Sequence record: LT961732
Direction: 5' to 3' (one strand)
DNA: 51,811 nt
Origin: Escherichia phage SECphi27
This document shows, one piece after another, positions 1,572 to 16,901 of the stretch. The number at the start of each line of letters is the position of its first letter. Positions within the stretch are counted from its first letter, which is position 1. Made by a program: the position numbers and the translations under genes. The notes under the pieces are model-generated. The model had not been told where the DNA came from. It searched no databases and worked only from the letters and a program-made list of their open reading frames with translations.

Positions 1572-2687
1572 ATGAAAAATGTAAAAATTACAGATGAGCA
1601 ATTCAAGATCGAGCGGGCGGCGGGTAAGACATATAAACAGATCGCTCAAGAGTACGGAATGAATGTGAGAAGCGTCGAGCGTCGCGCGGCGCGTCTTGCA
1701 AAGCAAGGCCAGGTATCCACCATTGGAGCGCCTGGTTTTGGCGTTCATGGTGAGTCAGTAATGACTGACAAAGAAGGCAACATAATCCTAAAGTGGACTA
1801 AAACCAGCAAGGATAAAGAGCAATTAGAAGCATTAATGCGCGCAGCAATGGAGGCATTTAGCGAGGAAGTGCCGAGATTAGATCCGGTCACATTACAGGA
1901 GCGCGACTATAACGAAACGCTTTCCTTGTATCCGATCTTTGACATGCACTTAGGCGCTATGGCCCATAAGCACGAATGCGGCGAAAATTGGGATACTGCC
2001 ACGGCAGAGCGCGTTATGAATAACTTTATCGACTATGCTTTAATGTGCGCACCGGATAGCGAAAAGGCTGTCATCCTGATTGGTGGCGATATGCTACATA
2101 GCGACGGCCTGGAGGCGGTTACACCTGCAAGCGGTCACGTACTGGATCAAGATAGTCGATATGCAAAATTGGTTTACGTTGCCATCCGTGCAATGCGACG
2201 CGCAATCAATAAAATGTTGTTAAAGCATAAACATGTTGAAGTCCAGATCGTAGAGGGCAATCATGACCAATCAGGAATGATTTGGCTACGCGCAGCAATG
2301 GCGGCAGCATATGAAAACGAGCCGCGAGTTTACGTTGATGTTTCCCCTCGCGTTGTGCACCACACGCAATACGGAAAAACTTTCCTTGCGTACCATCACG
2401 GGCACACAGTGCGTAAACCGGAGACTTTGCTAATGATGTGCGCGTCAGATTGGCGGGAGGACTTCGGAAACTCAAAAACGATGTATGCGCACGTAGGGCA
2501 CTGGCATCACCAGACCGTGACAGAAACGTCGCTTGGCATCGTTGAGGTGCATAGCACCCTGGCGGCAAAAGACGCATACGCCGCGCGAGGTGGCTGGAGA
2601 TCTCGACGCCGTGCGGCGGTTATCATTTACGACAAAGAGCATGGAGAAGTGGGGCGATTTGTTCACTATCCAGAAATGATGAATTGA
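1572..2687 (+). CDS. HTH domain fused to calcineurin-like metallophosphoesterase
   Basis: N-terminal helix-turn-helix-like segment (KTYKQIAQEYGMNVRSVERRAARL); phosphoesterase motifs GDMLHSDG, EGNHDQ, YHHGH, GHWHH; start moved to ATG 1572 after RBS. Confidence 0.6.
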   Translation: MKNVKITDEQFKIERAAGKTYKQIAQEYGMNVRSVERRAARLAKQGQVSTIGAPGFGVHGESVMTDKEGNIILKWTKTSKDKEQLEALMRAAMEAFSEEVPRLDPVTLQERDYNETLSLYPIFDMHLGAMAHKHECGENWDTATAERVMNNFIDYALMCAPDSEKAVILIGGDMLHSDGLEAVTPASGHVLDQDSRYAKLVYVAIRAMRRAINKMLLKHKHVEVQIVEGNHDQSGMIWLRAAMAAAYENEPRVYVDVSPRVVHHTQYGKTFLAYHHGHTVRKPETLLMMCASDWREDFGNSKTMYAHVGHWHHQTVTETSLGIVEVHSTLAAKDAYAARGGWRSRRRAAVIIYDKEHGEVGRFVHYPEMMN

Positions 2688-14479: not shown

Positions 14480-14659
14480 ATGGAAGATTTTACTATTATT
14501 GTGTTGTGCTGGGCGTTATTCATTTCTGTGTGGCTTATCCACGCGGCGCGGCATAGATTCCGGCTGAATTACGACAATTCGTTTGCGGAGGTGATTTGGA
14601 GCATTCCAGCATTTTCCTTACTAATCGTTATCACGGCTGAATATATCCATAGAGCATAA
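14480..14659 (+). CDS. small membrane protein (about 59 aa)
   Basis: Not in ORF track; two hydrophobic segments; fills intergenic gap. Confidence 0.35.
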   Translation: MEDFTIIVLCWALFISVWLIHAARHRFRLNYDNSFAEVIWSIPAFSLLIVITAEYIHRA

Positions 14660-14671
14660 CAGGGGCGATAG

Positions 14672-15208
14672 ATGAAAAAGTATACTTTCGAACTGTGGGG
14701 CAAGAAGTACGAATTAATCACCAGCAAGCCTATTGTTGTGTGCGATCTCGACGGCACACTATCGGACGGATCGCATCGTTTGCATTTGCTGCCAACTGAA
14801 AACTTGCACCTTACGGAATCGTGGCGCGAGTTTAACAGGGCCGCCGCCGGAGATTCACCAATTAAAAGCACTATCGCGGTTATTAACGGTTTATGGGTGT
14901 CGGGATTTGCCATCGTCATCTTGACCGGACGCAGCGACGAGGTTCGCTATGAAACCTGCAAATGGTTGAATGAGAACGGCGTGAAGTTTGACGAAATCAT
15001 CATGCGCCGCCAGGAGGACAACCGAAAGGATACGGTTATTAAAGAAGAATCCTTGCGCGCTATTGGCCTGGACAACATTGTTTGCGCCTTTGACGATTCG
15101 CCTAACGTGGTTAAGCACTTCCGCAGCTTGGGGATCACAACCTATCAGGTCACGGAATACGACAATCCACACGCTCATATACAATCTCACGGCGTGGAGA
15201 AATTATAG
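14672..15208 (+). CDS. HAD-family phosphatase (polynucleotide 3'-phosphatase-like)
   Basis: HAD motif I CDLDGTLSDG near N-terminus; 178 aa. Confidence 0.6.
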   Translation: MKKYTFELWGKKYELITSKPIVVCDLDGTLSDGSHRLHLLPTENLHLTESWREFNRAAAGDSPIKSTIAVINGLWVSGFAIVILTGRSDEVRYETCKWLNENGVKFDEIIMRRQEDNRKDTVIKEESLRAIGLDNIVCAFDDSPNVVKHFRSLGITTYQVTEYDNPHAHIQSHGVEKL

Positions 15209-15400
15209 ATGGCTGACTTTATGCATCAAATGATTGTTGTATTTAAGGGCAGTGAAGATGAAGAGGTTCGCGAATGCTTCACCATTGAGAAATCATACAG
15301 CGCATCTTTAACCAGTTTTGGCAACATATCTATGATTGATGATAATGGCGATCCGTGGATTTTTGAAGATGATACGGATTGCTTTGAGATTAAAGAATAG
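15209..15400 (+). CDS. hypothetical protein
   Basis: 63-aa acidic ORF; stop abuts motif. Confidence 0.45.
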   Translation: MADFMHQMIVVFKGSEDEEVRECFTIEKSYSASLTSFGNISMIDDNGDPWIFEDDTDCFEIKE

Positions 15401-15416
15401 CACTTTTTGTTAAAAT
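15398..15416 (+). promoter_or_regulatory. Conserved intergenic motif, forward class
   Basis: Begins with TAG stop; tatagt downstream; RBS GAGGA before ATG 15472. Confidence 0.55.
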
Positions 15417-15471
15417 CAACTTTACGGCCTGCGGTATAGTAAGCCCATCAACAACAAACGAGGATTAAATC

Positions 15472-15735
15472 ATGGCTAACAAGATCGAGTTTTTCAAAGC
15501 GGTAGACATTATTGATGGCGCGCATAGCTTCTTTGCCATCCATTCTATTGACGGCAAGGATATTGGGCACAACGTTATCCGTCGAGATGGAATCTCAAAA
15601 CTTAGTGACCTGGTAGGCTATATTGTGTCAAACGGGAAATGCGCATGGCCCGATTCGCCACGAGAGCCACGCCGCCGCGACATGGTAGATCCTGTTCTGC
15701 TTTACACTCTGGTAGTAGAAGGAGAAAATAAATGA
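15472..15735 (+). CDS. hypothetical protein
   Basis: 87-aa ORF. Confidence 0.5.
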   Translation: MANKIEFFKAVDIIDGAHSFFAIHSIDGKDIGHNVIRRDGISKLSDLVGYIVSNGKCAWPDSPREPRRRDMVDPVLLYTLVVEGENK

Positions 15736-15917
15736 TTTGGTTACTTGCTTTTTTGGTTGTTTTTCTTTACATTTCAGGCTTGTTTACGTTCCGCGCGTTG
15801 GTGAAATATTCTGACACGACAGACAAAGACGATAAAATCGTTCTCGCTTTCTGGTTTGTTTGGGTGTGGTTAGCAATTTACGAGATCATCAGAGACAAAC
15901 AGAAATTTGAGTGGTGA
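15732..15917 (+). CDS. small membrane protein
   Basis: 61 aa with two hydrophobic helices; ATGA overlap. Confidence 0.5.
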   Translation: MIWLLAFLVVFLYISGLFTFRALVKYSDTTDKDDKIVLAFWFVWVWLAIYEIIRDKQKFEW

Positions 15918-15972
15918 TTCTTGCTATGGCGCATTCATGCAGTGCGCCATGTTGAGAAAACCTAAAGGGGGA

Positions 15973-16116
15973 ATGATGCGTAACTTTGAAAAAATCATTA
16001 CCAAAAAGAAGCGTCGCGGGTACGATGAGCATGTGGAGTTTGTGAACAAACAGCGCAAGAAGCGCCATAGACGCGAAATGCTGCATAATATAAACTCACG
16101 CTATGGAGAAAAATAA
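15973..16116 (+). CDS. small basic protein (start uncertain)
   Basis: Lys/Arg-rich; AAGGGGG RBS. Confidence 0.4.
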   Translation: MMRNFEKIITKKKRRGYDEHVEFVNKQRKKRHRREMLHNINSRYGEK

Positions 16117-16308
16117 ATGCAATTGCCACCATTTGACAAAAAAAGCGAAGAGATTGCCAAAACTGCATGTCACCTTCGAGACCTTGCCGACATGATAGAG
16201 CGCGGTCAGGTCATGATTGTCAATATGACGATTAAAAGCGAGAATAGAAATTTCAAGGTTTTAAGCGAGACAACAGAAATTACTGTCTTGAAAGCAAGAG
16301 GTGAATAA
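16117..16308 (+). CDS. hypothetical protein
   Basis: 63-aa ORF. Confidence 0.45.
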   Translation: MQLPPFDKKSEEIAKTACHLRDLADMIERGQVMIVNMTIKSENRNFKVLSETTEITVLKARGE

Positions 16309-16310
16309 AT

Positions 16311-16901
16311 ATGAAACGAGACATTATCATCCTTAATGGGCCGCCAGGCTGCGGGAAGGACACTATTGCAGCTTACCTAACGGGCCATCGTTACCCAGCG
16401 GTTAAGGCGTCATTCAAACAGCCGATGTTCGATATTGCGTTTTCCATGCTGGGCGTGTACCGATACGATGAATTTATGGACCTGTACAACGACCGAGAGC
16501 AAAAAGAAAAGCCTCAAGTTATCTTAGGCGGCAAGTCACCTCGACAATTCATGATCTGGATTAGTGAGGATGTAATGAAGCCAGTTTTTGGGGAGCAGTA
16601 TTTCGGGCGTCGAATGGTTGAAGAGATTAACGAGATGTACCGAGATTTGGCGGTTGTGATCAGTGATGGCGGATTCCCCGAAGAAATCAAGCCGCTTGTT
16701 AAGGCAGGGCATGAGGTGCATATTTGCCGATTGCATCGCGACGGCTTCACGTTTGCTGGAGATTCGAGAGACTACATTGACCTGAGCGGTTATCACTATC
16801 GAATCCATCACTATGATTTCCACTTGCAGGAAGGTAAGCCGGAACTGGCTGTAAGCGAGATCGTCAATGCAGTCAAATGGAAGCACACACAGATTAAATA
16901 G
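16311..16901 (+). CDS. P-loop kinase, dNMP kinase-like
   Basis: Walker A NGPPGCGKDT resembling T4 dNMP kinase SGxxxSGKDT. Confidence 0.6.
   Translation: MKRDIIILNGPPGCGKDTIAAYLTGHRYPAVKASFKQPMFDIAFSMLGVYRYDEFMDLYNDREQKEKPQVILGGKSPRQFMIWISEDVMKPVFGEQYFGRRMVEEINEMYRDLAVVISDGGFPEEIKPLVKAGHEVHICRLHRDGFTFAGDSRDYIDLSGYHYRIHHYDFHLQEGKPELAVSEIVNAVKWKHTQIK

What the first reader, a model, noticed from the sequence alone, without database searches (positions are those of the whole stretch)
14672..16901. Split kinase and HAD phosphatase separated by five small ORFs
A HAD-type phosphatase (motif DLDGT; 14672-15208) and a dNMP-kinase-like P-loop kinase (GPPGCGKDT; 16311-16901) are encoded separately with five small genes between them, including one small membrane protein. 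T4 Pnk fuses the two activities and repairs tRNA cut by host anticodon nucleases, but no RNA ligase is visible in this genome. The enzymes may therefore work in nucleotide metabolism or in a different repair or counter-defence route.
Basis: partly seen in the sequence, partly recalled or inferred. Interest (0 to 1): 0.4.

Follow-up and report, generated by a model that had tools for sequence, protein, structure and literature searches.

The report
Phage dNMP kinase with partner phosphatase
This T1-like coliphage (SECphi27) carries a known type of phage deoxynucleotide kinase and, 1.1 kb upstream, its usual partner phosphatase; the pair is a stretched copy of a widespread nucleotide-pool gene cassette and not a split RNA-repair enzyme, so the finding is largely ordinary, although the phosphatase's substrate is untested.

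Summary
A 178-aa HAD phosphatase (14672-15208) and a 196-aa P-loop kinase (16311-16901) are separated by five small ORFs, one of them a two-segment membrane protein. The window is Escherichia phage SECphi27, a T1-like Drexlerviridae phage.

The kinase is not a Pnk-type polynucleotide kinase. It is a phage dNMP kinase (DNK). It is 82% identical to the KarlJaspers DNK and 46% identical to Rao1 R1DNK, both shown by Zeng et al. to trigger the Kongming defence. R1DNK phosphorylates all four dNMPs in vitro. The closest solved fold is T4 gp1 (1DEK).

The HAD does belong to the T4-Pnkp-phosphatase clade. It also shares PHROG 415 with T5 Dmp, a 5'-deoxynucleotidase.

HAD→DNK is a conserved cassette. 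In 70 of 80 related phage loci the HAD lies upstream on the same strand, from a 1-bp overlap to 2.2 kb away, and two natural HAD–DNK fusions exist. The intervening ORFs are variable passengers. No RNA ligase is detectable.

Best reading: a deoxynucleotide-pool module. One open point remains: the Rao1 HAD ortholog does not protect that phage from Kongming, so the HAD's substrate (3'- or 5'-phosphate) is unresolved.

The parts
14672..15208 (+). HAD-superfamily Mg-dependent phosphomonoesterase (178 aa). It belongs to the T4-Pnkp-phosphatase / T5-Dmp clade and is mis-annotated in databases as 'polynucleotide kinase'. It is the upstream member of the HAD->DNK cassette.
   Evidence: Pfam HAD_PNKP E 1.6e-20 and Acid_phosphat_B 39.3 bits, both above cutoff. 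phrog_415 E 1.8e-65. PDB sequence hits: Pnkp1 1.1e-7, T4 Pnk 5.4e-5. hhalign to T4 Pnk 96.9% and to T5 Dmp 89%. Foldseek best hit 5UJ0, the T4 Pnkp phosphatase, E 1.7e-9. Catalytic residues D25, D27, R36, R87, K124, D141, D142 are invariant across the T1-type, T5 Dmp and T4 Pnk sequences.
15209..15400 (+). Small acidic ORF s1 (63 aa), a passenger gene. In many close relatives a different ~58-aa domain is fused to the C-terminus of the HAD instead.
   Evidence: phrog_11551 E 7.9e-42. It lies between HAD and DNK in only 3 of 77 loci and upstream of the HAD in six of them (L080-L083, L086, L087). The 236-aa HAD variants are P0267 and P0293.
15472..15735 (+). Small ORF s2 (87 aa), a passenger gene of unknown function.
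   Evidence: phrog_25318 E 7.6e-6. Between HAD and DNK in 19 of 77 loci.
15732..15917 (+). Small membrane protein s3 (61 aa, two hydrophobic segments). It is the most persistent spacer gene.
   Evidence: phrog_9755 E 2.4e-22. Hydropathy segments at residues 1-24 and 36-53. Between HAD and DNK in 25 of 77 loci.
15973..16116 (+). Small, very basic ORF s4 (47 aa from the ATG at 15973; the frame is open from 15907). Passenger gene.
   Evidence: The ATG at 15973 follows AAAGGGGGA. Relatives annotate a 153-nt gene here. Pfam Phage_1_1 (T7 gene 1.1 protein) scores 20.9 bits against a cutoff of 21. Between HAD and DNK in 12 of 77 loci.
16117..16308 (+). Small ORF s5 (63 aa), a passenger gene of unknown function.
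   Evidence: phrog_16293 E 1.1e-8. Between HAD and DNK in 11 of 77 loci.
16311..16901 (+). Phage deoxynucleoside monophosphate kinase (DNK, 196 aa), the downstream member of the cassette.
   Evidence: phrog_139 E 1.3e-51. 82% identity to the KarlJaspers DNK and 46% to Rao1 R1DNK, both experimentally active. AlphaFold model pLDDT 91. Foldseek best hit T4 gp1, 1DEK, E 2.8e-7, TMq 0.71. hhalign to T5 DNK 95.5% over 66 columns.

Best explanation
The two enzymes form a conserved phage deoxynucleotide-pool cassette in the order HAD phosphatase then dNMP kinase. In SECphi27 and its subfamily the cassette has been pulled apart by insertion of variable small passenger genes. The kinase (DNK) uses ATP to convert dNMPs to dNDPs, which host Ndk then converts to dNTPs for phage DNA synthesis. 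T1-like phages have no DNA polymerase or nucleotide-synthesis genes and recycle host DNA, so such dNMPs would plausibly come from host DNA breakdown. This kinase step is shown experimentally for orthologs and is inferred here. As a side effect the DNK should make the phage a trigger of the Kongming defence, which needs a phage DNK to make dITP (inferred from an 82%-identical ortholog). The HAD is a Mg-dependent aspartyl-phosphatase with the full T4-Pnkp / T5-Dmp catalytic set. I infer that it acts on deoxynucleotides in the same pathway as the DNK and does not heal broken tRNA. Whether it removes a 5'-phosphate, as a selective Dmp-like nucleotidase that trims the pool, or a 3'-phosphate, as T4-Pnkp-like chemistry that feeds 5'-dNMPs to the DNK, is unresolved. 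I rate the two about equally likely.
For: Kinase: membership of phrog_139; 82% and 46% identity to DNKs that trigger Kongming. R1DNK phosphorylates dAMP, dGMP, dCMP and dTMP in vitro and its K15A mutant is inactive. The residues changed in Kongming escapers (R1DNK M45, R61, L136) correspond to M46, R62 and L141 here, of which R62 and L141 are invariant in the family. The nearest solved fold is T4 gp1. Linkage: the HAD lies upstream on the same strand in 70 of 80 IMG/VR loci, never downstream or opposite, with a gap from -1 to 2167 bp. The genes overlap by 4 bp in Webervirus KpV522, lie 49 bp apart in Rao1, and overlap in an Aeromonas Autographiviridae phage. Two independent intact HAD-linker-DNK fusions exist. 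No + strand terminator-like site lies between the genes. Small-molecule reading of the HAD: it shares a PHROG with T5 Dmp, a proven 5'-dNMPase, and has a Dmp-length loop after motif I that T4 Pnk lacks. In Vequintavirinae the same DNK is overlapped by a different HAD of the NT5C 5'(3')-deoxynucleotidase family, inside a ThyA/RNR cluster. Context: no ligase or Pnk-type kinase in the window. T1 and TLS degrade host DNA and reuse the nucleotides (PMC11447400).
Against: No enzyme from SECphi27 itself has been assayed. By sequence and structure the HAD is closer to 3'-phosphatases that act on polynucleotide ends (T4 Pnkp 96.9%, 29% identity; 5UJ0 and 4XRP are the top fold hits) than to T5 Dmp (89%, 22% identity; HMMER E 0.001-0.07). 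It also lacks an obvious cap domain. A 5'-dNMPase fused to a dNMP kinase would run a futile cycle. Rao1 carries a 58%-identical HAD (gp57) next to R1DNK, yet it is restricted by Kongming and is rescued by T5 Dmp supplied in trans. This argues that the T1-type HAD is not an efficient dAMP phosphatase in vivo. Deleting dnk in Rao1 had no measurable fitness cost, so the salvage benefit may be small under laboratory conditions.
Confidence: 0.62

Rival explanations
1. Split Pnkp-like end-healing system. The HAD removes 3'-phosphates or 2',3'-cyclic phosphates from broken tRNA or DNA, the P-loop kinase phosphorylates the 5'-OH, and a host ligase seals the break, countering anticodon nucleases or 3'-P-generating nucleases.
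For: The HAD's closest solved relatives are the T4 Pnkp and Pnkp1 3'-phosphatases, and all T4 catalytic residues are kept. HAD plus a P-loop kinase in a single polypeptide exists. In Webervirus, Rao1 and an Aeromonas phage the cassette follows a metallophosphoesterase annotated as a DNA repair exonuclease.
Against: The kinase is a dNMP kinase by orthology to assayed enzymes. Its fold matches T4 gp1 and not T4 Pnk, and it shares only the P-loop with Pnk. No RNA or DNA ligase is present. Phages that do carry an RNA-repair module (Vequintavirinae: phosphoesterase + pnk + RNA ligase) encode it separately, about 12 kb from their DNK.
Confidence: 0.1
2. The HAD is a T5-Dmp-type general 5'-deoxynucleotidase. 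Its main role would be anti-defence: it drains dAMP so that Kongming-like systems cannot use the phage DNK to make dITP.
For: It shares PHROG 415 with T5 Dmp. [quoted passage not shown] The tight HAD-DNK linkage would fit an antidote travelling with its liability.
Against: Rao1 has the ortholog gp57 beside R1DNK and is still strongly restricted, and escape requires dnk mutations. T5's protection is attributed to pre-early expression of Dmp before DNK, whereas here both genes lie in one co-oriented block, with the HAD directly abutting or fused to the DNK in many relatives. The T1-type HAD lacks the Dmp C-terminal ~65 residues and falls at or below the paper's homology threshold.
Confidence: 0.15
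3. The two genes are functionally unrelated neighbours in a block of early accessory genes, and their proximity in SECphi27 is coincidental.
For: Five unrelated small ORFs lie between them, and promoter-like matches in the region are at chance level, so co-regulation is not demonstrated.
Against: Order and strand are conserved in 70 of 80 loci. The genes overlap in several genera and in a different phage family, and two independent fusions exist.
Confidence: 0.03

Closest known systems
Phage dNMP kinases that trigger Kongming: Rao1 R1DNK and Escherichia phage KarlJaspers (Bas06) DNK (Zeng et al., bioRxiv 10.1101/2024.12.20.629578)
   Same: Same protein family and motifs (LNGPPGxGKDT, SFKxPMF, DRExKE, FMIWISE, DGGF, GDSRxY). 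82% and 46% identity respectively. Same T1-like genomic setting, with a HAD gene upstream.
   Different: The SECphi27 enzyme itself is untested. Here the HAD is 1.1 kb away with five ORFs in between, against 49 bp in Rao1.
T5 Dmp (5'-deoxynucleotidase) plus T5 Dnk
   Same: A HAD phosphatase and a dNMP kinase in one phage. Dmp and the SECphi27 HAD share PHROG 415, the catalytic residues, and a long loop after motif I. The kinase aligns with T5 DNK beyond the P-loop.
   Different: T5 dmp is a pre-early gene in the terminal repeat; Zeng et al. state that dnk enters the cell later. Dmp is 244 aa with a C-terminal extension and is only about 22% identical to the SECphi27 HAD. T5 DNK is 250 aa and aligns over only the first ~70 residues.
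T4 polynucleotide kinase/phosphatase (Pnkp; 1LTQ, 5UJ0) and Capnocytophaga Pnkp1 (4XRP)
   Same: The phosphatase domain is the closest solved relative of the HAD in sequence and fold, with all essential T4 residues conserved and the shared segment DNRKDTxIKEE / GDTRKDDVVKEE.
   Different: The kinase partner belongs to a different family (a dNMP kinase, not a 5'-OH polynucleotide kinase). The gene/domain order is reversed, phosphatase first. There is no ligase partner. The HAD has a ~14-residue longer loop after motif I.
T4 gp1 dNMP kinase (1DEK)
   Same: Best structural match of the kinase model (E 2.8e-7, TMq 0.71), and it shares the GKDT P-loop.
   Different: Only 15-18% identity. No significant sequence-only match in the PDB.
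DNK plus NT5C-family HAD pair in Vequintavirinae (HeinrichReichert, PVP-SE1), seen here
   Same: The same DNK family is translationally coupled to a HAD-superfamily phosphatase.
   Different: The HAD family differs (PF06941, 5'(3')-deoxyribonucleotidase type), it lies downstream of the DNK, and the pair is embedded in a thymidylate synthase / ribonucleotide reductase cluster.

Membership tests
Phage dNMP kinase (DNK; PHROG 139; T5 Dnk / T4 gp1 / R1DNK type) | Walker A motif GxxxxGKDT with the catalytic lysine | tested here: met
   GPPGCGK16DT is present. G15, K16, D17 and T18 are invariant across 20 family members. K16 aligns with R1DNK K15, whose K15A mutant is inactive.
Phage dNMP kinase (DNK; PHROG 139; T5 Dnk / T4 gp1 / R1DNK type) | Significant sequence membership and orthology to assayed DNKs | tested here: met
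   phrog_139 E 1.3e-51. 82% identity to the KarlJaspers DNK and 46% to R1DNK over the full length. hhalign to T5 DNK 95.5%.
Phage dNMP kinase (DNK; PHROG 139; T5 Dnk / T4 gp1 / R1DNK type) | NMP-kinase fold closest to T4 gp1 | tested here: met
   Model pLDDT 91. Foldseek rank 1 is 1DEK, E 2.8e-7, TMq 0.71.
Phage dNMP kinase (DNK; PHROG 139; T5 Dnk / T4 gp1 / R1DNK type) | ATP-dependent dNMP to dNDP activity | not testable with these tools
   Shown in vitro only for R1DNK, and by Kongming triggering for the KarlJaspers, VAC2, T5 and XZ1 DNKs.
T4-type bifunctional polynucleotide kinase/phosphatase (as a split version) | HAD 3'-phosphatase domain with DxDxT and the equivalents of R176, R213, K258, D277 and D278 | tested here: met
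   D25, D27, R36, R87, K124, D141 and D142 align with the T4 residues. Pfam HAD_PNKP scores 74.1 bits. The best fold match is 5UJ0.
T4-type bifunctional polynucleotide kinase/phosphatase (as a split version) | 5'-OH polynucleotide kinase domain of the Pnk family | tested here: not met
   Only 22 P-loop columns align with T4 Pnk. T4 Pnk is not among the top 50 fold matches. tblastn with the T4 Pnk kinase domain finds nothing in the window.
T4-type bifunctional polynucleotide kinase/phosphatase (as a split version) | Companion RNA ligase to seal healed ends | tested here: not met
   No hit to two phage RNA ligases or two DNA ligases. None is annotated in a 95%-identical relative.
T5 Dmp-type 5'-deoxynucleotidase (anti-Kongming) | Homology to T5 Dmp | tested here: inconclusive
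   Same PHROG 415 and hhalign 89%, E 2.2e-6. However, BLASTP gives only E 0.015 and HMMER gives E 0.001-0.07 at Z=10000, at or beyond the 1e-3 threshold used by Zeng et al..
T5 Dmp-type 5'-deoxynucleotidase (anti-Kongming) | Dmp architecture (~244 aa with a C-terminal extension) | tested here: not met
   The protein is 178 aa and ends about 65 residues before the Dmp C-terminus. It also lacks the Dmp insertions around motif III.
T5 Dmp-type 5'-deoxynucleotidase (anti-Kongming) | 5'-dNMP phosphatase activity and protection from Kongming | not testable with these tools
   Indirect evidence is negative. Rao1 carries a 58%-identical ortholog (gp57) beside its DNK, yet it is Kongming-sensitive and is rescued by T5 Dmp in trans.

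The most novel reading that the evidence does not exclude
The T1-type HAD is neither a Dmp-like dAMP drain nor an RNA-repair enzyme. It would be a 3'-phosphatase, with T4-Pnkp chemistry, physically coupled to the dNMP kinase (co-translated, or fused in some phages). Together they would form a two-step salvage line that converts 3'-phosphorylated deoxynucleotides from host-DNA breakdown (3',5'-bisphosphates or 3'-P oligonucleotide ends) into dNDPs. This would be an undescribed phage nucleotide-recycling route. It would also explain why the Rao1 ortholog does not protect against Kongming.
Probability: 0.2. Interest if true: 0.55.

Novelty: new member of a known kind. Interest (0 to 1): 0.3.

Why it matters
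This result removes a tempting but wrong reading, a split T4 Pnk for tRNA repair. It also corrects a widespread annotation error: HAD-only proteins of PHROG 415 are labelled "polynucleotide kinase".

It predicts that SECphi27, a phage widely used in defence-system screens, triggers Kongming through its DNK.

It documents that the HAD→DNK cassette is very tightly linked across phage families. The cassette occurs as overlapping genes, as fusions, and in an analogous form with an NT5C-type HAD.

It isolates one real open question. The T1-type HAD is the constant partner of a kinase that is a liability under Kongming, yet the Rao1 ortholog apparently does not act as the antidote.

Tried and rejected
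- Sequence-only searches for the kinase gave nothing useful. Pfam had no family above cutoff, NCBIfam had no hit, and PDB sequence and profile searches matched only the P-loop. The family was identified through PHROGs, the fold search and the literature.
- The promoter scan was uninformative: 14 sites against 12.8 expected.
- I looked for Kongming fold-protection values for T1-like phages (T1, tonn and Bas03-13 were in the panel). They exist only as figure images.
- The idea that the five small ORFs, especially the membrane protein, are components of the system was rejected because their presence is variable.
- I considered a 5-hmdU DNA kinase role in thymidine hypermodification, from my own knowledge. 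I rejected it because the relatives annotate no thymidylate-synthase-like or hypermodification genes and the orthologs are proven dNMP kinases.
- I considered a role in NAD+ salvage (NR kinase plus NMN phosphatase). No fold or family support was found.
- The catalytic residues do not discriminate 3' from 5' specificity, because T4 Pnkp, T5 Dmp and the T1-type HAD all share them.
Full report
**What is there.** The window is Escherichia phage SECphi27. The kinase ORF is 100% identical to that phage's "ATP-binding protein", found on a 51,811-base contig. The region is 92-96% identical to T1-like Drexlerviridae of the genus Warwickvirus.

- a 178-aa protein with the HAD motif I CDLDGT (14672-15208);
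- a 196-aa protein with GPPGCGKDT (16311-16901);
- five small ORFs between them.

The third small ORF (15732-15917) has two hydrophobic segments. The fourth most likely starts at the ATG at 15973, behind a Shine-Dalgarno-like AAAGGGGGA.

**The kinase.** Pfam, NCBIfam and PDB sequence searches recognise only the P-loop. PHROGs places the protein in phrog_139, "deoxynucleoside monophosphate kinase" (E 1.3e-51). A confident AlphaFold model (pLDDT 91) has T4 gp1 dNMP kinase (1DEK) as its best solved match (E 2.8e-7, TMq 0.71). Adenylate kinases follow, and T4 polynucleotide kinase is not in the top 50. Profile comparison aligns 66 columns with T5 DNK (95.5%) but only the 22-residue P-loop with T4 Pnk. 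I verified the T4 Pnk sequence as identical to 1LTQ.

The literature settles the kinase's identity. Zeng et al. (bioRxiv 10.1101/2024.12.20.629578) showed that phage DNKs trigger the Kongming defence. In that system KomA deaminase, a phage DNK and host Ndk together make dITP, which activates the KomBC NADase. Their tested DNK from Escherichia phage KarlJaspers (Bas06) is 82% identical to the SECphi27 protein. Rao1 R1DNK is 46% identical; it phosphorylates dAMP, dGMP, dCMP and dTMP in vitro and its K15A mutant is inactive. The R1DNK residues changed in Kongming escapers (M45, R61, L136) correspond to M46, R62 and L141 here, of which R62 and L141 are invariant in the family. The kinase is therefore a DNK and not a 5'-OH polynucleotide kinase.

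**The phosphatase.** The HAD passes the Pfam cutoffs for HAD_PNKP (74.1 bits) and Acid_phosphat_B (39.3 bits). Its best PDB sequence hits are Pnkp1 and the T4 Pnk phosphatase domain. Its model has a confident core but poorly modelled residues 37-49 and 164-178. The model's best structural matches are 5UJ0 (T4 Pnkp phosphatase), 4XRP and 1LTQ.

The HAD also falls in phrog_415, which is labelled "polynucleotide kinase". The experimentally characterised T5 5'-deoxynucleotidase Dmp is a full-length member of that same PHROG (E 3.6e-57). Profile-profile comparison gives 96.9% probability and 29% identity to T4 Pnk, against 89% and 22% to the Dmp family. A joint alignment shows the catalytic set invariant in all three groups. 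D25, D27, R36, R87, K124 and D141/D142 here correspond to T4 D165, D167, R176, R213, K258 and D277/D278. The T1-type protein shares the long loop after motif I with Dmp and the DNRKDTxIKEE segment with T4 Pnk. It is a sister family to both, and homology alone does not fix its regiospecificity.

When I emulated the paper's homolog definition, T1-type HADs were the best non-Dmp hits, but only at E 0.001-0.07. They were probably not counted as "Dmp homologues".

**Are the two genes partners?** Yes. Among the 80 IMG/VR loci that best match this kinase, 70 have the HAD upstream on the same strand. It is never downstream or on the opposite strand. The gaps run from a 1-bp overlap to 2167 bp.
- In Webervirus KpV522 the genes overlap by 4 bp.
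- In Rao1, gp57 (58% identical to the SECphi27 HAD) precedes R1DNK (gp58) by 49 bp.
- In an Aeromonas Autographiviridae phage the genes overlap again.
- Two independent intact ORFs fuse HAD, a conserved linker and DNK. One of them lies on a 60.7-kb phage-like contig.
- In three lineages a metallophosphoesterase ("DNA repair exonuclease") precedes the pair. In SECphi27 its ortholog lies at 1572-2678.

The five intervening ORFs are passengers. None is universal, about 35 of 77 loci have none, and the membrane protein is the most frequent, in 25 loci. No terminator-like site separates the two enzymes.

**An analogous pair.** In Vequintavirinae the same DNK is overlapped at its 3' end by a different HAD of the NT5C 5'(3')-deoxyribonucleotidase family, next to thymidylate synthase and ribonucleotide reductase genes. 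The RNA-repair module of those phages (phosphoesterase, pnk, RNA ligase) lies elsewhere. This recurrent pairing of a DNK with a nucleotidase-type HAD favours deoxynucleotide substrates for the HAD partner.

**Mechanism.** The DNK most likely turns dNMPs into dNDPs for a phage that has no polymerase or nucleotide-synthesis genes and is known to recycle host DNA (PMC11447400). [quoted passage not shown]

I infer that the HAD acts on deoxynucleotides in the same pathway. The open point is which phosphate it removes. Rao1 carries the HAD ortholog yet is restricted by Kongming and is rescued by T5 Dmp in trans. This argues against an efficient dAMP 5'-phosphatase and leaves two options: a selective nucleotidase, or a 3'-phosphatase that feeds the DNK.

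The split-Pnkp RNA-repair reading is unlikely. The kinase belongs to the wrong family and no ligase is present.

**Verdict.** The locus is an ordinary, expanded copy of a widespread HAD→DNK cassette whose kinase is already characterised. The partner phosphatase is mis-annotated, its substrate is untested, and that is where the modest residual interest lies.

Noticed in passing
window 14672-15400; proteins P0267, P0293: Most close homologs of the HAD (93-98% identical) are 236-237 aa. They carry an extra ~58-aa C-terminal domain (…IKITKRARFVGSKDS…DDSG…W.F.H.DGDFVNA). SECphi27 instead stops at 178 aa and has a separate 63-aa acidic ORF (s1) with a loosely similar ending (…DDNGDPWIFEDDTDCFEIKE). 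So this small domain is fused to the HAD in some relatives and free-standing in others.
   Followed up: partly
window 14480-14659 (+): A 59-aa ORF with two hydrophobic segments lies immediately upstream of the HAD gene. It has no tblastn match (E<=1e-4) in any of the other 76 loci that carry the cassette. It may be an insertion specific to SECphi27.
   Followed up: partly
window 15973-16116 (+): The 47-aa, very basic spacer ORF s4 scores 20.9 bits against Pfam Phage_1_1 (T7 gene 1.1 protein), just under the cutoff of 21. It has no PHROG match.
   Followed up: no
window 1572-2678 (+); L003 1342-2472; L005 36693-37826; L089 16454-17428: A metallophosphoesterase, annotated as a 'DNA repair exonuclease', directly precedes the HAD->DNK pair in Webervirus, Rao1 and an Aeromonas Autographiviridae phage. 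In SECphi27 its ortholog (57-62% identical) lies about 12 kb away. This may be a three-gene module that has been broken up here.
   Followed up: partly
L088 17230-18431; L090 19998-21198: In Vequintavirinae the DNK gene overlaps a downstream NT5C-family HAD (PF06941; 26.3 bits in HeinrichReichert, 19.9 bits in PVP-SE1). The pair sits inside a thymidylate synthase / ribonucleotide reductase cluster. It looks like an independent, analogous kinase-nucleotidase pairing.
   Followed up: partly
window 14780-14818 and 15161-15205 (HAD residues 37-49 and 164-178): Two strongly conserved HAD segments (LLPTxDLHLTESW and PHxHLQSHGVE) are modelled with pLDDT below 50. In the natural fusions the C-terminal segment leads into a conserved linker (…AAGxxMxKxGxFxGPELHG) that matches phrog_2741. 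These could be a substrate flap or a contact surface for the kinase.
   Followed up: no
search results: Database annotations of these two families are inconsistent. HAD-only proteins are called 'polynucleotide kinase', '3'-phosphatase, 5'-polynucleotide kinase' or 'acid phosphatase'. DNK homologs are called 'phosphomevalonate kinase', 'replication factor C large subunit' or 'ribulose-phosphate 3-epimerase'. Nine records labelled Campylobacter phage (host C. jejuni) match this coliphage region at the nucleotide level, which suggests mislabelled or contaminant T1-like genomes.
   Followed up: no
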